Virus record (IMG/VR): IMGVR_UViG_3300044700_000345
Span: 16,983-80,982 of that record
Length of the DNA stretch: 64,000 bases
Direction: 5' to 3' (one strand)
Source: a virus
Shown here: in pieces, positions 4,103 to 56,769 of the stretch
Numbering within the stretch: position 1 is the stretch's first letter
Layout of the letters: the number at the start of each line of letters is the position of its first letter
Position numbers and translations under genes: made by a program
The notes under the pieces: generated by a model
Databases searched by the model: none
Seen by the model: the letters and a program-made list of their open reading frames with translations, nothing else
Told to the model about the DNA's origin: nothing

Positions 4103-4939
4103 TCAGCTAACAGTGCGGTTGTTAAGGTAAGATTCGATATCTTCGTAACTGGGAGCGTCATCCGGACGAACGTAGCACACTTCAACAACCAGGTAACCAG
4201 TGCGTCCTGCAGCAACATCAGCATCAGAAATGTACACACCACCAGAAGTGGAAGTGTCATTAGGAGCGCCTTTAGCAAACACACCAAGAGTAGTGGAAGC
4301 AGTAACGGGATAACGAGAAATGGTACCAGAACCAACACCAGAGATAGCGGGAACGCCAGTACTGGTAATGAAAGGGTTAGTACCAAAACCTTGCGTACCG
4401 CCAGCAAAATAAATCTTGGCAGCAGCATCACCAGAGACCGTAGAGGTCATGTTGGCTTGAATCGAGCCTTCAGCAACACCGGAAAAAGCAACGCCAGTGG
4501 CGGCAGCAGTAGTACCGATGTTACGTCCAAACGAAATGATGTTACCGGTAGCAGCATACACACCGGAAGCGGTGCGGCCATCACCCCAGCCAGAAGCCAC
4601 GGAGATCGCAGTGCGATACACATAAGCAGGCTGTGTGGCGCTACCAGAAATCACCATGCCTGTGATGTCGGTACGGGTGTCGTCCTGCCGGTAAGGCGAA
4701 GGAACAATCACGCTCATAAAAGCGCCGCTAGAGGTAGCGTTACCTGAGGCCCAGGTTACGGGTACATAGCCACGTTGCTGAAAGTAACGGTAACCAGGAA
4801 CAGCCAACACGGAAGTGGGGCCACCTTTAGAAGAATCGTTGGTACCATCAGCGGGGTTAGCGTCAATGTTTTTGTACCAACCATTAAGAGCATTACTCCA
4901 GTTACCTGGATAGATCTTTTTAGCAGACAAGTAGGTCAT
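4103..4939 (-). CDS. Putative capsid decoration/cement protein
   Basis: 278-aa Ser/Thr/Gly-rich protein immediately downstream of the major capsid gene. Confidence 0.5.
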   Translation of the reverse strand: MTYLSAKKIYPGNWSNALNGWYKNIDANPADGTNDSSKGGPTSVLAVPGYRYFQQRGYVPVTWASGNATSSGAFMSVIVPSPYRQDDTRTDITGMVISGSATQPAYVYRTAISVASGWGDGRTASGVYAATGNIISFGRNIGTTAAATGVAFSGVAEGSIQANMTSTVSGDAAAKIYFAGGTQGFGTNPFITSTGVPAISGVGSGTISRYPVTASTTLGVFAKGAPNDTSTSGGVYISDADVAAGRTGYLVVEVCYVRPDDAPSYEDIESYLNNRTVS

Positions 4940-9540: not shown

Positions 9541-9762
9541 TCAAGAGATTGTTTTATTTTGGAAACCAGTAGGCATTTGTTGTTCGTATTGAGAAGCAGC
9601 AAAGAATCCAGCGTTACCCATGGGAACCATGCCGTTTGAAGAAGCCAGAGGTACCTGGATCTCGCTAGGATTTATATGTGGATGGCGTACCATCAGCGGA
9701 TTAGGATTGGCCTGTGCTTGATATCCGGTATTACCTGGGGCACCAGGGAAATTGTAATACAT
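9541..9762 (-). CDS. Hypothetical small late protein
   Basis: 73-aa ORF with own -10 box (TAAAAT) upstream. Confidence 0.5.
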   Translation of the reverse strand: MYYNFPGAPGNTGYQAQANPNPLMVRHPHINPSEIQVPLASSNGMVPMGNAGFFAASQYEQQMPTGFQNKTIS

Positions 9763-9787
9763 TTCAAATTTTGCTTGTTGTTTTATT

Positions 9788-9970
9788 TTACTCTTCTATA
9801 ACCTCGTACCCAGCGCTGTCGTTGATCTTGGTCAGAAGAACACCATTTCCTTTGAGCTTCCATTCCAGAACATCACCTTCTTGCCAAGCAAGGGTTTCTA
9901 TGATGTCATCCGGAAAAGTGATGAACGATTCCCCGTTTTCGTCTTCTTGTATTTCCAGGATGTAGCTCAT
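9788..9970 (-). CDS. AbrB/SpoVT-like DNA-binding protein
   Basis: 'ITFPDDIIETLAWQEGDVLEW' AbrB-like motif. Confidence 0.65.
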   Translation of the reverse strand: MSYILEIQEDENGESFITFPDDIIETLAWQEGDVLEWKLKGNGVLLTKINDSAGYEVIEE

Positions 9971-10260
9971 TTTGTCAAAAGCTTTTCCACAAGTTTATCA
10001 AGCTTCATGTTGATCTGTTTAAAATTGTCGTGCATTTCTGTAATTTCCCTTAAGAAGTCTACCTTCAAAACGTAGTCCAAGGGCATACGGTTCACCTTTT
10101 CTTCTAGCTTATCCAACTCTCTTTCTTGGTTTGCCAATGCGTTATCAATTTGCTTTGCTTGTACTGAAAAACGATTTAAAATTTTATTGGCGGTCCAACT
10201 CCCCCCGGAGACGCCTGATATAACCAACGTTACAAATAACGCTAAATATTCTGGACCCAT
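9967..10260 (-). CDS. Membrane-anchored coiled-coil protein (holin-like candidate)
   Basis: N-terminal hydrophobic helix followed by heptad coiled coil. Confidence 0.5.
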   Translation of the reverse strand: MGPEYLALFVTLVISGVSGGSWTANKILNRFSVQAKQIDNALANQERELDKLEEKVNRMPLDYVLKVDFLREITEMHDNFKQINMKLDKLVEKLLTK

Positions 10261-10288
10261 GACTAAAACCTTTTCTCTATTCTAGACT

Positions 10289-11815
10289 TCAGTAATCGAG
10301 ATGGAGGTTTCCTTTTCTGGCCAATCCTGTTACCAACCATACCAAGGCGTCGACACAATCGTCATGGCTACTAACACCGAAATTAGTGAGTTCCTCGAAG
10401 AGATTACTGAAGTTCCTGAAACGGTTGAAGATAATCTTACGGTCTTCAAACATACCAATGATGCCACGGAATCGTGCAAGCTTATCTGCACGGAACCCTT
10501 TCACTGGGTGCCAAAGCAGATTGTAGAGTCCTTCATTATTCAGGCAAACACGTTTGAAGTCGGCCTCCAAGGAAGCCTGGTATTGTACGGCTTCTGACCA
10601 AATATCACACGTTGAGTATGTTGGGAAGTACGAACCGTTTTCATCACAACCAAGAATAGACCAATCGTTTAAAAGCTCCTTCATGGCATCTAGTTTTTCC
10701 AGGTTTCCCATGACTCTGATGCGTCGGTAATCAATGATGTGTATACGGTCTCCAATACGTCCTCCAAGGATCATTACGGTGTAATCGTTTTTCTCTTTGA
10801 TACCAGCGGAAAGATCAACACCAATACCAAGAGCGTCAAATTCTGTTGAGATTTCTGCCTTAACAATTAACTCTGGTGCCAAGGACAATTCATTTTGTCG
10901 TATAACTTGATTCATGTACTGGAAAGAAAATGCAATAGGTGCTTGCCTTTTCTTTTCCTTTAGGTATTCCAAGGGCCACATCTCCGGCCAGTATGACTTC
11001 TCTTCTCCTGTTTTAACATCATTTTGAATAGCAGATAAAACAATTTGCATCCAGTTGTTTTGTTCATTAAATGTTGTCGAGTGAATATCATCATGCCTAA
11101 ACCTGGTACCAAGGCAGATTGCCCTGGCACCTTCAAACATGGTTGGTGAAATCACTGCGTTCCAGTTATCCTGCATCATTTTTCTAATGTCAGGGTTTGA
11201 GATGTCTGCGGCTGACTTGATAGCGTCATCAATCATTACCAAGTGCGAACGCTTAGAGGTCACCGAACCTTTCAAGCCTGCAGCACAAAGAGTAAATTGT
11301 TCATCACCAATTACTTCAATACCAGCAAATTTATGGTCAATAGACCAGTATTCATTACTGGTTACGTTCTTCAGGAGACGTACCCTAGGGAAAACTTCTT
11401 GATACCTTTTGCTTTCAATGATGCGTTTAATAGTTGCAGACTTGGAACGAGCAATGTCTACCGTGTAAGACAAGTAAAGAATTTGGAGCGGAAGTTTGGC
11501 AGTAGTGTGAATTCCAATTGCCCAGGCGGTAAGCAAACCTAGAACTGTGCTCTTTGCTGAACCGCGAGGAGCAAGTAGGTCAATGTTTGGACCAGCAATT
11601 TTGATCAAACAAGAGCTATCTTGATTGGTTATAAATTGCTTATGCCATTCTTTATGGTGCTCTGCCGGTGGTTTATCTGCTACGTACTCACAAAAATAAC
11701 CAAAATCTTCCTTTGCAAGATCCAGTTTATCTTGGTTTTTGTTTTCTTTAAGTTTAAAGTTTTTTGTTGCAGCACGAGCATTACGACGATGTGCCAGGTA
11801 AGTATAAGCGGGCAC
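10289..11815 (-). CDS. terL: Terminase large subunit
   Basis: Walker A-like 'APRGSAKST', Walker B 'VMIDD', 'LGTRF', nuclease 'GVDLS' and 'HDDCVDA'. Confidence 0.92.
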   Translation of the reverse strand: MPAYTYLAHRRNARAATKNFKLKENKNQDKLDLAKEDFGYFCEYVADKPPAEHHKEWHKQFITNQDSSCLIKIAGPNIDLLAPRGSAKSTVLGLLTAWAIGIHTTAKLPLQILYLSYTVDIARSKSATIKRIIESKRYQEVFPRVRLLKNVTSNEYWSIDHKFAGIEVIGDEQFTLCAAGLKGSVTSKRSHLVMIDDAIKSAADISNPDIRKMMQDNWNAVISPTMFEGARAICLGTRFRHDDIHSTTFNEQNNWMQIVLSAIQNDVKTGEEKSYWPEMWPLEYLKEKKRQAPIAFSFQYMNQVIRQNELSLAPELIVKAEISTEFDALGIGVDLSAGIKEKNDYTVMILGGRIGDRIHIIDYRRIRVMGNLEKLDAMKELLNDWSILGCDENGSYFPTYSTCDIWSEAVQYQASLEADFKRVCLNNEGLYNLLWHPVKGFRADKLARFRGIIGMFEDRKIIFNRFRNFSNLFEELTNFGVSSHDDCVDALVWLVTGLARKGNLHLDY

Positions 11816-23567: not shown

Positions 23568-23771
23568 ATGTCATCAAAGCAAGTTGGATATTTAGCTGTT
23601 GCTATCTATGTAACTGCAGTGACGGGAACTACAGCAGGGATCATGACGTTCGGTGTTGCAAAGTTAGATCAAGCAACGGCACTTCAGTGTCGTACGCATG
23701 ACTGGCCTGTTAACGCACATATGGTTCATATGGACTGGTGTAAGGCCAATAATTACACCACCACCAAGTAA
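23568..23771 (+). CDS. Small early membrane protein
   Basis: AGGAG SD; hydrophobic helix then 'QCRTHDWP...WCKANNY'. Confidence 0.55.
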   Translation: MSSKQVGYLAVAIYVTAVTGTTAGIMTFGVAKLDQATALQCRTHDWPVNAHMVHMDWCKANNYTTTK

Positions 23772-23841
23772 CAAGCGTGATGCCGGGGGATCAAATCCCC
23801 CTACTTGGTATTGCCACACACTGAGTGTGGCTAACAGAACA

Positions 23842-35932: not shown

Positions 35933-36019
35933 GGGGATGTGGTGGAATCGGTAGACACAACAGACTTAAAATCTGTCGGCCGTTAGGCCATGCGAGTTCA
36001 AGTCTCGCCATCCCTACCA
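35933..36019 (+). tRNA. tRNA-Leu (anticodon TAA), CCA encoded
   Basis: GGGGATG/CATCCCT acceptor stem, D-loop GG, ACAGA-CTTAAAA-TCTGT anticodon arm, long variable arm, TTCAAGT T-loop, 3' ACCA. Confidence 0.95.
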
Positions 36020-51930: not shown

Positions 51931-52052
51931 GATACTTGACTCTTTTTTTAATTCTAACAGAAGTTGATCAGAATTAAAAACTTGTTGCTTTGACCTTCTG
52001 CATAGAATTATTGCTGCATTTCACCTTATAATAGAAGTACAGCAAGAAAATT

Positions 52053-54500: not shown

Positions 54501-55101
54501 AGCTTCCTCGTTGTTTAAGGTAAAGAACTGCACTTGTCAGTACTTCTATATTATCACCGAACAAGCCCAAGGCCCTGTTGCATTCTTTGCAAAGCAAGCC
54601 ACGGAACTCGTTTGTTGCGTGATTGTGGTCCATTGCTAGATCGTGGGTGTCTTTAGGCGGGCTTTTGCAAATAGCGCATTTACCTTCTTGCACTTTAAAC
54701 ACCTGTTCATATTGTTCTTTTGTAATTCCTCTGCGTTCATATTTTTTACAAGAATGGTGCAACTTGTTTTGACCTTGTTTCTTAACCGCAAGGTAATGTT
54801 CTTTATTGTTTTCTACCCATTTGTCCCATTTGATTTTGTTACATGATTTACATGAAGAATGTAAATATAAGTTGCCATCCTGTTTTCTTCTTCTAAAGCA
54901 ATCCCAATTCAAATAGTGAGCACATTTAGAACATTGTTTTTGACCCTCGGCTCCATATAAAAGTTTGAAGCGGCAATTTACCAAGGACCTGCAATCTTTG
55001 CAAACACTGTCTCTTTTTGTATTGCCAGCTGAAGTGTGCCCTTTGTTGTGAAAATTTTCATGTAGTTTTCTGATTCCGCACTCACGGCAGAGTTTTTGCA
55101 T
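54493..55101 (-). CDS. Endonuclease VII-like HNH homing endonuclease with two N-terminal Zn fingers
   Basis: 'CAIC...LAMDHNH...FRGLLCKECNRALG'. Confidence 0.9.
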   Translation of the reverse strand: MQKLCRECGIRKLHENFHNKGHTSAGNTKRDSVCKDCRSLVNCRFKLLYGAEGQKQCSKCAHYLNWDCFRRRKQDGNLYLHSSCKSCNKIKWDKWVENNKEHYLAVKKQGQNKLHHSCKKYERRGITKEQYEQVFKVQEGKCAICKSPPKDTHDLAMDHNHATNEFRGLLCKECNRALGLFGDNIEVLTSAVLYLKQRGSYG

Positions 55102-55136: not shown

Positions 55137-55235
55137 TTATTGACCCGGCTTACCCACCTTAGATCCTGCCATCACGCGATCTTTAATGTTCTCGCGTACT
55201 TCAGGCTTAGTGTATTTAGTCTTTTCCTCTGACAT
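55137..55235 (-). pseudogene. Truncated 5' duplicate of the DUF5872-like gene
   Basis: MSEEKTKYTKPEVRENIKDRVMAGSKVGKPGQ* vs MAEDKTKYTKPELRERIKNRVMRESRGGKPGEW. Confidence 0.8.
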
Positions 55236-55489
55236 TATTTATACAACCCCATTCGACGAGCTTCGTCAAGTGTTCCCGGAGCAGTTGCTCCTGCATTTAT
55301 TGTTGTAAGACCAACAGCAGGTAAAGATAAATAAGGTGTTCCAAATAAATACCCGGCAACTTGATTTACTGGGTCTTGGGTTGAAGATGCAAAACCATGC
55401 CCTAAACCAATTTTAGCTGCTTCATTTAGTCCCCCTGGGATAGGTCCAGGTTGACGCATAAATTTGCCGGCTAATTGAAATAGATTCAT
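55235..55489 (-). CDS. LAGKF-motif protein
   Basis: MNLFQLAGKFM...; TAAAAT box upstream. Confidence 0.55.
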   Translation of the reverse strand: MNLFQLAGKFMRQPGPIPGGLNEAAKIGLGHGFASSTQDPVNQVAGYLFGTPYLSLPAVGLTTINAGATAPGTLDEARRMGLYK

Positions 55490-55538
55490 TTTGAAATTAT
55501 TTCTTTCTTTTATTTTACTTGGTATTGTCGTTACATAA

Positions 55539-55775
55539 TCAACGCTCCTGGAATCGAACCAGGTAATGTAAACCCTTGTCGGGTTGCCTTATCCTTTCGG
55601 CCTAGCGCTGAGGTGTGGGTCCCATCCCCACTGGATCCATCAATGAGGCTAATGGATGCAACCCCTCCGTATCAGCCGGATGGCACGCCGGATAGATGAC
55701 TTCCAGTTCAGGATGAATCGGGTGTGTCGCCTTTTAAACTATGTGTCTAACGCGCACAGGGACCCGATCTCTATC
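55539..55775 (-). ncRNA. Structured ncRNA ending in a tRNA-like domain (55540-55610)
   Basis: Acceptor CAGCGCT/AGCGTTG, D-arm GCC/GGC with GG, T-arm CCTGG-TTCGATT-CCAGG, aberrant anticodon arm; several upstream helices; TGtTAGAAT box at about 55782-55790. Confidence 0.6.
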
Positions 55776-55883
55776 AATCAGAATTCTAACAAAAAATCTC
55801 CGGGTGTCAAGCCGGAGAATAATAGATTTACTTACCGCTTCCATTCGGTTGTTACAGAGAAGTTGACTACTTCCGGTAGAAGT

Positions 55884-56087
55884 CTACAGCCCAGTTCGCT
55901 CTGTCACGGGTCCATTGAATTTACTCATGAGTTCATCCATGTGCTCCAGGGATTCGATGCGCATGAGGATGTCGGTCAATGTGTGAATGGTGATTGGCTT
56001 TTCGGTTCTTGCAGCAAATGCAAGAGCTTCCCGTAGATTGAGTGTGGCTGCATCTACGGAGTCTTTGACGGGTGTCGTTAGGGCCAT
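55884..56087 (-). CDS. Hypothetical protein
   Basis: MALTTPVKDSV...LREALAFAARTEKP. Confidence 0.55.
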   Translation of the reverse strand: MALTTPVKDSVDAATLNLREALAFAARTEKPITIHTLTDILMRIESLEHMDELMSKFNGPVTERTGL

Positions 56088-56127
56088 GGTTGGGGTAATA
56101 ATTTTTATTTTACAGTAGCAAGGGACT

Positions 56128-56769
56128 TTATTCTTCCCAAATCCAGCCAACCTGGTAGTCATCAAAGTACGGTTCACCGCCAAGGGCTTCGATGAGTTCG
56201 TAGACTAGGCGACCTTTACCTAGGCGTTTGCCTTCGGGAGTCACAATATTGTCATCAATTACAACAAGGGTTCCGGGTTTTAGGCAGTGACGTGCAGCAA
56301 ACAACTCTTTGAGATGATGAGCTGCCGGTTCGCAGTCACGGTTCCAGTCAGTAATGTTATATGAATCCATGTAGAGAAGGTCAATTTTACCCTCCAGGGA
56401 TGCAAGGAATTCTACTGAGTCTTGGCATACAACAATAGCGTGATCAGTTTCGGAGAATGCTAGGTCACAAGCTTTTTGTTCATTGTCTACTGACCAGAGA
56501 ATCCCGCCATGAGCAGCCACATACTGATCAAACAAAAGGGTTGAGCAGCCGTCGCCTTCGTAATTGTTTTCCTCACGGTATGTGCCAGTTTCAACAATGA
56601 CTGGCTCTCTAATGCCCCCCAGGTAGTCAAAGATTTGTTCAAAGGTGTTGGCGCGTTTGCCAAGGCGTGGTTTGATTTGATCCCAGTAGATATCCCAGCA
56701 TGTTAATTCGCTAGTTGTCGATTCGGATGTAGTCAATTTTTTGGTCTTTGAGGAGGATTTCGTGGGCAT
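56128..56769 (-). CDS. Class I SAM-dependent methyltransferase (Methyltransf_24-like)
   Basis: 'IVETGT', 'WSVD', 'DSVEFL', 'IDLLYMDS', 'LKPGTLVVIDD'. Confidence 0.8.
   Translation of the reverse strand: MPTKSSSKTKKLTTSESTTSELTCWDIYWDQIKPRLGKRANTFEQIFDYLGGIREPVIVETGTYREENNYEGDGCSTLLFDQYVAAHGGILWSVDNEQKACDLAFSETDHAIVVCQDSVEFLASLEGKIDLLYMDSYNITDWNRDCEPAAHHLKELFAARHCLKPGTLVVIDDNIVTPEGKRLGKGRLVYELIEALGGEPYFDDYQVGWIWEE

What the first reader, a model, noticed from the sequence alone, without database searches (positions are those of the whole stretch)
55539..55775. Roughly 235-nt structured RNA ending in a tRNA mimic with a non-canonical anticodon arm
Seen on the minus strand, downstream of a TGtTAGAAT box. 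Domain 1: GATAGA/TCTATC enclosing ATCGGGT/ACCCGAT. Domain 2: CCATCC/GGATGG enclosing ATCCATTAG/TTGATGGAT, with an alternative long-range pairing GGGTCCC/GGGACCC. Domain 3: a cloverleaf with a 7-bp acceptor stem, D-loop GG and a canonical TTCGATT T-loop, but AACCC-GACAA-GGGTT gives a 5-nt anticodon loop, U8 and U33 are absent and CCA is not encoded. Inference: not a decoding tRNA; perhaps an RNase P/Z processing handle for the upstream RNA, a decoy for anticodon nucleases, or an undescribed phage ncRNA class.
Basis: partly seen in the sequence, partly recalled or inferred. Interest (0 to 1): 0.7.

Follow-up and report, generated by a model that had tools for sequence, protein, structure and literature searches.

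The report
Non-decoding tRNA mimic of cyanophages
This lake cyanophage makes a roughly 240-base RNA from its own promoter, and its last 72 bases fold like a tRNA that cannot read codons; many Synechococcus phages carry the same uncatalogued design, and its job is still unknown.

Summary
Window 55539-55775 (minus strand) sits behind a near-consensus promoter and consists of three separately conserved RNA modules.

- **5' hairpin domain, 55775-55691.** Its core hairpin recurs in 25 IMG/VR loci.
- **Three-hairpin module, 55682-55615.** It recurs in 14 loci, and 12 of its 18 pairs show compensatory changes.
- **72-nt tRNA-shaped RNA, 55610-55539.**

ARAGORN and Rfam do not call the third module as a tRNA. 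My covariance model places it (65.5 bits) in a family of 82 distinct sequences from 105 loci. These come from S-EIVl-like phages and from tRNA arrays of T4-like Synechococcus phages (S-PM2, S-CREM1, S-RIM8 and others), and no isolate record annotates it.

All four helices covary. The anticodon arm is replaced by a 4-bp stem, usually with a bulged A, capped by a GACAA pentaloop. That loop is kept in 79 of 82 sequences while its closing pair changes. The same loop sequence occurs in P22 boxB.

It is therefore neither a decayed tRNA nor a decoder. Function is inferred only: a processed, stable mimic that offers a protein-binding hairpin, possibly an anti-defence decoy, since relatives place an abiF antitoxin-type RNA 4-5 nt upstream. 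No transcript was seen. Earlier notes of this scan found the same family on other DNA.

The parts
55797..55818 (-). Terminator hairpin of the upstream operon, followed by a T6 run. Its loop holds the -35 box.
   Evidence: 7 pairs, 5 of them G-C, then TTTTTT. The same terminator-promoter overlap is seen in L005, L027, L011, L030 and L054.
55783..55810 (-). Sigma-70-type promoter: TTGACA, 16-nt spacer, TG-extended TAGAAT. The predicted start is near 55776.
   Evidence: 11 of 12 positions match and TG is present. This is a consensus match only. The start site is inferred and was not mapped.
55691..55775 (-). Module M1. Outer helix GATAGA/TCTATC, inner helix ATCGGGT/ACCCGAT, and a core hairpin at 55752-55728 (stem TTAGAC/GTTTAA, loop ACATA, flanked by CG and AAGGCG).
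   Evidence: The core motif was found in 25 IMG/VR loci. On 21 distinct copies 99.5% of cells pair and 4 of 9 pairs have compensatory changes. The inner helix covaries by eye: CGGG/CCCG here against CAGG/CCTG or TCAGG/CCTGA in relatives.
55615..55682 (-). Module A, three hairpins: H1 55682-55677 with 55669-55664, H2 55657-55651 with 55641-55635, H3 55631-55627 with 55619-55615 (loop GATGGGA).
   Evidence: The pattern scan found 14 loci. On 13 sequences (12 distinct) 96.3% of cells pair, 12 of 18 pairs have compensatory changes, and 0 of 500 shuffles reach the covariation score. It also occurs with other downstream partners.
55539..55610 (-). 72-nt non-decoding tRNA mimic: acceptor CAGCGCT/AGCGTTG, 3-bp D stem with a GG loop, ACCC-GACAA-GGGT mini-arm, T arm CCTGG-TTCGATT-CCAGG, discriminator A, no CCA.
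   Evidence: R1 covariance model 65.5 bits, E 1.8e-17. Cloverleaf is the MFE fold, z -3.56. Family covariation. It is a single copy in the 80,982-bp genome.

Best explanation
**Shown.**
- The locus is a promoter-driven string of three independently conserved RNA modules.
- The last module belongs to a large family of tRNA-shaped RNAs that is confined to phages, as far as I could look.
- Family members keep a full tRNA body: acceptor, D and T arms and the elbow nucleotides.
- The anticodon arm is replaced by a 4-bp stem, usually with a bulged A, capped by an almost invariant GACAA pentaloop.

**Inferred.**
- The transcript starts near 55776.
- Host RNase P cuts at 55610/55611 and RNase Z trims after 55539.
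- CCA is then added, giving a stable 72-75-nt tRNA look-alike plus a free structured RNA of about 165 nt (M1 plus module A).
- The mimic cannot decode.
- Its pentaloop has the sequence of the P22 boxB loop, which folds like a GNRA tetraloop with the C flipped out towards a peptide. I therefore read the mini-arm as a specific protein-binding site mounted on a tRNA chassis.
- The most likely role is to bind and occupy a host or phage factor that handles tRNAs, that is, as a decoy or adaptor in the phage-host conflict.
- Releasing the upstream RNA would be a by-product of its processing.

The confidence given is for the whole statement. The 'shown' part alone I hold at about 0.9. The decoy or adaptor mechanism alone I hold at about 0.35.
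For: **tRNA detectors fail, but homologs exist.**
- ARAGORN and Rfam find no tRNA at the site.
- nhmmer and model R1 find homologs in 8 of 30 primase-anchored relatives' loci, including isolate S-EIVl.

**Structure is under selection.**
- On 41 distinct sequences, 94.3% of cells pair and 17 of 20 pairs carry compensatory changes.
- The covariation score is 0.595, against 0.10 or less for slid controls and 0 of 500 shuffles.

**The loop is fixed while its stem changes.** This comes from a scan that fixed only the D arm and T loop.
- Among 44 distinct new sequences the loop is GACAA in 41.
- The closing pair is A-U in 22, G-C in 14 and C-G in 2.
- The bulged nucleotide is A in 42.
- Over all 82 distinct sequences, GACAA occurs in 79 and all four stem pairs form in 74.

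**It is treated like a tRNA gene.** In myovirus arrays it lies 1-5 nt from tRNA-Gly and tRNA-Asn.

**It does not depend on an upstream RNA.** It follows the promoter directly in L015, L016 and L051.

**Loop identity.** GACAA equals the P22 boxB pentaloop, with the C looped out onto the N peptide (passages of PMC12550061).

**Company it keeps.**
- An abiF RNA (RF03085, above gathering score) ends 4-5 nt before the mimic in L039, L054 and L033.
- An abiF-like 3' half precedes it in 15 of 94 distinct contexts.
- abiF motifs are RNA antitoxins of AbiF (abstract of PMC12373285).
Against: - **No transcript was seen.** RNA-library contigs of three runs cover 55823-56742 and 54921-55075 but not 55539-55775. 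Those contigs are shallow and poor at small structured RNAs, so this counts neither way.
- **No partner protein was identified**, and no conserved neighbouring gene was found.
- **Processing, CCA addition and lack of charging are all inferred.**
- **The window's own copy is atypical.** It has A8-G9 in place of U8-A9, a 3-bp D stem, and a U where others have the bulged A.
- **Part of the sample was biased.** 36 distinct sequences came from a pattern that required CCGACAAGG, so only the second scan and the nhmmer and model hits test loop invariance.
- **Close relatedness of many copies inflates the shuffle controls.**
- **Host origin is not excluded.** I could not search cyanobacterial genomes.
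Confidence: 0.55

Rival explanations
1. It is only a processing handle. The tRNA shape recruits RNase P and RNase Z to cut the transcript, giving the upstream ncRNA a defined 3' end or the downstream mRNA a defined 5' end, and the mimic itself has no further role.
For: - In the window it ends a structured RNA and is followed by an ORF with no terminator between them.
- In L039, L054 and L033 it abuts an abiF RNA at 4-5 nt, so RNase P cleavage would release that RNA precisely.
- In L028 a real tRNA-Pro(TGG) follows a structured leader, and L010 also has a tRNA-Pro(TGG) in the upstream region.
- Earlier notes of this scan describe half-size tRNA mimics at gene junctions of S-EIVl-like phages (not checked here).
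Against: - RNase P and RNase Z need only the acceptor/T-arm half (established knowledge). Yet the D arm, the bulged A and the GACAA loop are conserved across 82 distinct sequences while the stems covary.
- In myovirus arrays both neighbours are real tRNAs 1-5 nt away, so no extra handle is needed there.
Confidence: 0.25
2. It is a charged but non-decoding tRNA-like RNA. An aminoacyl-tRNA synthetase recognises the body or the GAC of the loop, as valine-accepting plant-virus tRNA-like structures are charged, and the product feeds a non-ribosomal use or binds EF-Tu.
For: - The tRNA body is intact with a free acceptor end.
- The 1:72 pair is C-G in 68 of 82 sequences and the discriminator is A in 46 of 82.
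- The loop contains GAC, the valine anticodon (noted from sequence only).
Against: - There are 41 different acceptor stems, and the discriminator is A, U, C or G, so no constant acceptor identity set exists.
- A 5-nt loop cannot present an anticodon in the usual geometry (established knowledge).
- The G3-U70 pair of the window copy is absent from its closest relatives, which have A3-U70.
Confidence: 0.06
3. It is an odd decoding tRNA, for instance a doublet-reading or frameshifting tRNA, as the ARAGORN label 'anticodon (ca)' would suggest.
For: ARAGORN labels relatives 'tRNA-??? anticodon (ca)' in L011, L015, L016 and L027, that is 4 of 8 model-positive loci scanned, and in L041, L089, L102 and L109.
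Against: - The closing pair of the loop covaries (C-G, A-U, G-C), so the loop is 5 nt, not 6 or 7.
- No member has U33.
- The arm is shorter than an anticodon arm.
- Long ORFs of the window read normally in table 11, so there is no sign of recoding.
Confidence: 0.03
4. It is a recently decayed tRNA pseudogene or the tRNA-derived half of an integration site.
For: tRNA detectors fail on it.
Against: - 17 of 20 pairs have compensatory changes.
- The loop and bulge are conserved in two unrelated phage lineages.
- Both acceptor strands covary.
- It occurs in lytic T4-like phages.
Confidence: 0.02
5. It is a YrlA-type bacterial Y RNA that tethers a Ro60 (Rsr) protein.
For: YrlA RNAs also mimic tRNA and occur in some phages (recalled: Chen et al. 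2014, Wang et al. 2018; not read here).
Against: - No TROVE/Ro60 gene is found in the complete 80,982-bp genome, while the control search rang in 2 of 14 control genomes.
- No Rfam family matches.
- The acceptor end is free here, whereas YrlA is described as lacking a free CCA end (recalled).
Confidence: 0.02

Closest known systems
Phage T4 stable RNAs C and D (species 1 and 2 RNAs) in the T4 tRNA cluster
   Same: - They are small stable RNAs of unknown function encoded beside phage tRNAs (annotation of NC_000866).
- rnaC ends in a T-arm-like GGTTCGAATCC element followed by a few bases, much as the window's RNA ends in a tRNA shape.
   Different: - There is no homology. Model R1 matches only a 24-nt T-arm piece of rnaC at 13.7 bits, while real T4 tRNAs score 16-38 bits.
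- T4 RNAs have no GACAA mini-arm.
Canonical tRNA (Rfam RF00005)
   Same: Acceptor, D and T arms, G18-G19, the TTCGATT T loop, tRNA length, and tRNA-like spacing within arrays.
   Different: - No 7-nt anticodon loop, no U33 and no anticodon.
- RF00005 gives no match at E up to 10 at this site.
- A grey zone exists. Ordinary tRNAs with the same D arm score up to 49.7 bits with R1.
- The least typical members kept score 44.2-53.3 bits: L295, L088, L126 and L069. L053 at 48.3 bits was left out of the 82.
boxB hairpin of phage P22 (N-peptide binding site)
   Same: Identical GACAA pentaloop on a short G-C-rich stem. In P22 it adopts a GNRA-like fold with the C looped out onto the peptide (PMC12550061 passages).
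   Different: - boxB acts in cis in a nascent mRNA leader with boxA and an N protein. This hairpin sits inside a tRNA body.
- It has a bulged A.
- No N-like protein was found or looked for.
abiF RNA motif (RF03085), RNA antitoxin of AbiF/Abi_2
   Same: It stands directly upstream of the mimic in relatives L039, L054 and L033. A look-alike with an expanded loop stands upstream of the mimic in L027, L011 and S-EIVl (by eye).
   Different: The window has no abiF match. Module A occupies that place here, and it shows no match to abiF or any other Rfam family.
YrlA (tRNA-like bacterial Y RNA) and tmRNA tRNA-like domain
   Same: Both are non-decoding tRNA mimicry with a conserved elbow.
   Different: - No Ro60 gene.
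- No tag reading frame.
- Neither ARAGORN nor Rfam calls a tmRNA here.
- The cloverleaf is contiguous with a free acceptor end.

Membership tests
Canonical tRNA (RF00005) | 7-bp acceptor stem, D arm with G18-G19, T arm with a TTCRANY loop | tested here: met
   MFE cloverleaf; helices covary.
Canonical tRNA (RF00005) | 5-bp anticodon stem with a 7-nt loop, U33 and an anticodon | tested here: not met
   The loop is 5 nt (GACAA), and its closing pair covaries in relatives. No U33.
Canonical tRNA (RF00005) | Score at or above Rfam's gathering threshold (29 bits), or a call by ARAGORN | tested here: not met
   No RF00005 match at the site at E up to 10. ARAGORN finds only tRNA-Leu at 35933-36019.
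   65.5 bits, E 1.8e-17. The window sequence was one of the 36 used to build the model, so this match is partly by construction. Its near relatives L005 and L064 score 67.1 and 64.3 bits.
   ACCC-GACAA-GGGT.
   The window has U at the bulge position, A8-G9 and a U7-A66 pair. Family counts are bulged A 74 of 82, U8-A9 74 of 82 and G-A 49 of 82. The window is a divergent member.
YrlA / Y RNA | Ro60 (TROVE) gene in the same genome and a Ro-binding helix closing the RNA | tested here: not met
   PF05731 is absent from the complete genome. No Rfam match.
tmRNA | Tag reading frame, G3-U70, SmpB-type tRNA-like domain, detection by ARAGORN or Rfam | tested here: not met
   No call. G3-U70 occurs in the window copy only, and its relatives have A3-U70.
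T4 rnaC/rnaD | Sequence and structure similarity | tested here: not met
   R1 with filters off matches only a 24-nt piece at 13.7 bits.
boxB / N-utilisation site | GNRA-like pentaloop hairpin | tested here: inconclusive
   The loop sequence is identical to P22 boxB. The fold was not tested.
boxB / N-utilisation site | boxA partner, an N-type antiterminator and cis action in an mRNA leader | not tested
   No search was made for N-like proteins. Placement inside a tRNA body argues against membership.
abiF RNA (RF03085), for the upstream part | Match to the Rfam model | tested here: not met
   No abiF match in window 55300-56000 at E up to 10. It is met in relatives L039, L054 and L033.

The most novel reading that the evidence does not exclude
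The mimic is an RNA anti-defence decoy. It is a tRNA look-alike whose U-free, GNRA-type capped arm cannot be cut. It docks through the GACAA loop and bulged A onto a cyanobacterial tRNA-targeting abortive-infection RNase or its sensor, for example an AbiF/Abi_2-type HEPN enzyme. S-EIVl-like phages would fire it from one promoter together with antitoxin-like RNAs (abiF RNA in relatives, module A and M1 here), and host RNase P and RNase Z would cut the string into active pieces.
Probability: 0.2. Interest if true: 0.85.

Novelty: new variant of a known kind. Interest (0 to 1): 0.65.

Why it matters
Phage tRNA genes are usually explained by codon supply or by replacing tRNAs that host defences destroy. 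This element is a tRNA-shaped RNA that selection has kept for something other than decoding. It occurs in two unrelated cyanophage lineages and in model phages such as S-PM2, yet it is missing from every annotation and from Rfam.

It gives a concrete, testable handle on RNA-based phage-host conflict in ecologically dominant picocyanobacteria. The features are defined precisely enough to mutate: loop, bulge and chassis.

It also has a practical side. tRNA detectors either miss it or label it 'tRNA-???'. The two upstream modules are further uncatalogued RNA motifs.

Tried and rejected
**Searches that gave nothing**
- blastn of window 55490-55900 against 50,697 phage records found no match.
- Expression. 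Of four RNA-library runs laid as contigs, X15, X16 and X17 cover 55823-56742 and X15 also covers 54921-55075. None covers 55539-55775, and X18 laid nothing. These are shallow contigs, so this is neither evidence for nor against a transcript. One X16 contig ends at 55823, inside the terminator stem, which is no more than a hint.
- Rfam at E up to 10 on the window region and on L011 gave only chance-level matches: Plastid-ycf2, CRISPR-DR24, tRNA-Sec at 20.4 bits, and microRNAs.

**Parent tRNA.** The best-scoring ordinary tRNAs under R1 were His, Cys, Gly, Ile and Arg at about 37-40 bits, with Glu at 29-36. I dropped an early idea that the mimic derives from tRNA-Glu or tRNA-Pro.

**T4 rnaC/rnaD** are not homologous.

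**Ro60** is absent from this genome.

**Cellular genomes**
- I searched 100 of them (L113-L212) with R1 and left L213-L232 unsearched.
- Only L137 (82.6 bits, identical to phage locus L033) and L126 (52.9 bits, a 2.7-kb contig) look like the family. Both are MAG contigs and may be phage DNA.
- None of the 120 is labelled cyanobacterial, which proves nothing for a capped scan.
- To reach cyanobacterial genomes I took a phage psbA from L106 and asked for the contig of a cyanobacterial homolog.

**Rows dropped**
- Before the first count I dropped, by eye, pattern hits that lack a tRNA body or are shifted: L045, L047, L048, L053, L056, L059, L063, L065, L072, L077, L080, L086, L093, L099, L104 and L111. 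I also dropped copies too near a locus end (L105).
- In one search a regular expression kept 82 of 104 distinct aligned sequences. The other 22 were L050, L069 and L053 (family-like with other spacing), five with GACAT or GCAAC loops, and fourteen with an ordinary-length anticodon arm (mostly ordinary tRNAs).
- In one search I searched 100 of the 103 new loci and left out L349-L351 because of the source limit.

**Limits of what I read.** Supplementary tables of the papers were not opened, and they may list ncRNAs of S-CREM1 or S-SCSM1 that I did not see.
Full report
**Setting.** The window is bases 16983-80982 of a complete 80,982-bp virus record with direct terminal repeats. Its primase is 55% identical to that of Synechococcus phage S-EIVl, the only isolate covering most of the protein. 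Runs that hold the DNA are freshwater metagenomes. The finding lies in a 394-nt gap between two minus-strand ORFs, 55884-56183 and 55235-55489.

**The observation.**
- A terminator hairpin (55818-55797, then T6) carries a TTGACA box in its loop.
- Sixteen bases on lies TG-T-TAGAAT, an 11-of-12 match with an extended -10.
- A start near 55776 and an end at 55539 give an RNA of about 240 nt.
- The whole stretch folds better than shuffles (z -2.60).
- The last 72 nt alone fold into the proposed cloverleaf as the minimum-energy structure (z -3.56, 0 of 200 shuffles).
- ARAGORN finds only tRNA-Leu(TAA) elsewhere in the window.
- Rfam finds nothing at the site at gathering thresholds and only chance-level matches at E up to 10.
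- The tRNA model finds nothing there even at E up to 10 in the whole genome.

**The tRNA-shaped part is a member of a large family.**
- Twenty-nine IMG/VR loci were fetched through the primase.
- nhmmer with the 330-nt region found homologs in L005, L027, L011, L019, L015, L016 and in S-EIVl itself (L002). There it lies in an unannotated gap.
- These showed a constant mini-hairpin and T loop with changing stems.
- An exact-pattern scan of IMG/VR for that hairpin plus T loop gave 80 stretches.
- After I dropped 16 loci by eye (named under Tried and rejected), 70 copies and 36 distinct sequences remained.
- I aligned these (A1) and built a covariance model (R1).

**What R1 finds.**
- It hits the window copy at 65.5 bits, and copies in L012 and L030 that the pattern had missed.
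- In those two the mini-stem is GGGC/GCC or GGGC/GCT instead of CCCC/GGG.
- On the model-fitted alignment of 43 matches (41 distinct), 94.3% of cells pair and 17 of 20 pairs have compensatory changes.
- The covariation score is 0.595, against 0.10 or less when partners are slid and 0 of 500 shuffles.
- The alignment was fitted to the model and many rows are close kin, so the shuffle count is generous. The gap to the slid controls is still large.

**An unbiased test of the loop.** The first pattern forced the hairpin, so I scanned again with only the D arm and T loop fixed (capped at 118 stretches, 103 new loci).
- R1 over 100 of these gave 64 matches of 64 bits or more.
- It also gave 34 matches between 42 and 57.5 bits. 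This grey zone holds variant loops (GACAT) and ordinary tRNAs (His, Gln, Glu, Gly, Trp, Asn) that share the D arm.
- Pooling both alignments gives 141 rows, 104 distinct sequences and 82 with the mini-arm.
- The loop is GACAA in 79, AACAA in 2 and GATAA in 1.
- The closing pair is C-G 40, A-U 22, G-C 14, U-G 2 and U-A 1, with 3 mismatched.
- All four stem pairs form in 74. The bulged nucleotide is A in 74.
- In the 44 distinct sequences that came only from the unbiased scan, GACAA occurs in 41 and the bulged A in 42.
- The loop is therefore a true pentaloop under strong sequence constraint, and the stem beneath it is free to change.
- The body is less constrained. There are 41 different acceptor stems, 1:72 is C-G in 68 of 82, the discriminator is A 46, U 23, C 11 and G 2, and 7:66 is a G-A mismatch in 49.
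- CCA follows the discriminator in 2 of 92 distinct copies.

**Where the family lives.**
- BLAST with four family members found it only in Synechococcus phages: S-PM2, S-CREM1, S-RIM8, S-SZBM1, DSL-LC03 and S-RIM32. Every hit had 'none' as the annotated feature.
- In S-PM2 it lies between cpeT and a small ORF.
- In myovirus-type contigs it sits inside tRNA arrays in the order Arg(tct), Gly(tcc), mimic, Asn(gtt), Val(tac), 1-5 nt from its neighbours. ARAGORN labels it 'tRNA-??? anticodon (ca)' there.
- In the 100 bacterial and archaeal loci that I searched out of 120 pattern hits, only two MAG contigs look like the family. One of them is identical to a phage locus.
- I could not search cyanobacterial genomes.

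**The upstream 165 nt are two further modules, not part of one fixed RNA.**

*Module A (55682-55615)* is three hairpins.
- A scan for its third hairpin found 14 loci.
- On 12 distinct sequences 96.3% of cells pair and 12 of 18 pairs have compensatory changes.
- In most of the 14 loci module A is followed by something other than the mimic.

- The core recurs in 25 loci, sometimes twice in tandem (L358) or between two tRNAs (L353).
- On 21 copies 99.5% of cells pair and 4 of 9 pairs are compensatory. The pattern constrained purine/pyrimidine class at several positions.

*How the modules combine in relatives.*
- L054 carries M1, module A, further hairpins, an abiF RNA and then the mimic.
- L027, L011 and S-EIVl carry M1 or a variant, then an abiF-like hairpin with a large pseudoknotted insert, then the mimic, then a second and different tRNA-like RNA.
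- L015 and L016 have the mimic straight after the promoter.
- L028 has a structured leader followed by a genuine tRNA-Pro.

**The abiF link.**
- Rfam places abiF (RF03085) above its gathering score 4-5 nt upstream of the mimic in L039, L054 and L033. That is 3 of the 9 loci scanned.
- It also places abiF beside a tRNA-Arg in L041.
- A simple regular expression for the abiF 3' half matches within 32 nt upstream in 15 of 94 distinct contexts.
- The abiF motif is the RNA antitoxin of the AbiF/Abi_2 toxin (abstract of PMC12373285).
- In S-CREM1 the published ncRNAs wcaG, manA and abiF lie at 9745-10567 (PMC9964418, passages).
- The unmentioned mimic lies among them at 9968-10039.
- The window itself has no abiF match.

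**How it most likely works.**
- *Shown:* a conserved tRNA body, a non-anticodon arm with a fixed pentaloop, tRNA-like packing in arrays, and its own promoter here.
- *Established knowledge:* RNase P, RNase Z and the CCA-adding enzyme act on the acceptor/T-arm half and the elbow, so such an RNA should be cut out and matured like a tRNA.
- *Inferred:* the mature RNA is stable and does not decode.
- GACAA is the pentaloop of P22 boxB. There it folds like a GNRA tetraloop with the C turned out to contact the N peptide (PMC12550061, passages).
- A fixed loop, a fixed bulged A and a free stem are the usual signature of a protein-binding hairpin.
- I therefore read the element as a tRNA chassis carrying a specific binding site, acting as a decoy or adaptor.
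- Its company with antitoxin-type RNAs suggests a role in defence and counter-defence.
- Cutting at its 5' end would also free the upstream RNA. That could be its only role, but such a role would not explain the conserved arm or its presence between real tRNAs.
- I put about 0.9 on 'conserved, non-decoding tRNA mimic'. I put much less on any particular mechanism.

**Comparison with the known.**
- T4's stable RNAs C and D are the nearest precedent in kind: small RNAs of unknown function beside phage tRNAs. They are not homologous.
- YrlA, tmRNA and canonical tRNA each fail a tested defining feature.
- I found no description in five literature searches or in the cyanophage ncRNA lists of PMC9602691 and PMC9964418 (passages).
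- PMC10690425 reports unnamed tRNA-like candidates in IMG/VR, and I could not check these against this family (passages only).
- Earlier notes of this scan describe the same family on other genomes, with the same closest-known and the same open question.

**Verdict.** The finding is real and well delimited. It is a divergent member of an uncatalogued cyanophage family of non-decoding tRNA mimics, preceded by two other uncatalogued RNA motifs. Function and expression remain to be shown.

Noticed in passing
L011 3167-3241, L027 3986-4060, L002 (S-EIVl) about 4831-4905, L019 1793-1893, all minus strand: A second, different tRNA-like RNA starts 2-3 nt after the mimic in L011 and L027, and about 37 nt after it in S-EIVl. 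It has a 7-bp acceptor stem (CACCTGG/CCAGGTG type), a normal T arm and a variable insert of up to about 45 nt in place of the anticodon arm. R1 scores it 15-22 bits. In L011 the hairpin at the D-arm position also has a GACAA loop.
   Followed up: partly
L035 1705-1955 and 2452-2659: A phage contig's tRNA array holds a cyanobacterial-type two-piece tmRNA (Rfam cyano_tmRNA 116.6 bits; ARAGORN gives a permuted tmRNA with tag ANNIVAFSRSKSTALV). It also holds a manA RNA (100.2 bits). The tmRNA lies about 85 nt before the mimic at 2040-2114, and the manA RNA about 340 nt after it.
   Followed up: partly
L041 8281-8317 (minus); L039 6065-6101; L054 3037-3073; L033 3901-3937 (minus): abiF antitoxin-type RNA motifs with no visible toxin gene beside them stand in cyanophage contigs, abutting a tRNA or the tRNA mimic.
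   Followed up: partly
L237, L239, L241, L242, L247: about 100 nt downstream of module A: In these loci module A is followed by an M1-core-type hairpin and then a conserved stretch that includes hairpins of the GCAGCTAGG...CTGC type and the CGCCCCGAAAGTCTGGGGTCGC type. This looks like another conserved composite RNA.
   Followed up: no
L019 1907-1986 (minus): ARAGORN calls a 'tRNA-???' with a four-base anticodon (gatc) in a relative that has module A but no GACAA mimic.
   Followed up: no
L028 2138-2209 and L010 2646-2721 (minus): In these relatives a genuine tRNA-Pro(TGG) lies in the region upstream of the primase. In L028 it is preceded by a structured leader of about 110 nt (AAGTCCTGG...CCAGGCC type), a module that is also inserted in L011 and L012.
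   Followed up: partly
window 55797-55818 with 55783-55810: The -35 box of the promoter lies in the loop of the preceding terminator hairpin. The same overlap is kept in L005, L027, L011, L030 and L054.
   Followed up: partly
window 23764-23809 (+) and 51949-52009 (-): There are sub-threshold matches to the Rfam tRNA model (17.3 and 11.8 bits). Earlier notes of this scan describe half-size tRNA mimics in related phages, so these may be such elements.
   Followed up: no
L253, L274, L297, L303, L308 (R1 44-57 bits): This sub-group has the same body but a GGC-GACAT-GCC arm without the bulged A, and an acceptor stem like that of L033. It may be a sister family.
   Followed up: no
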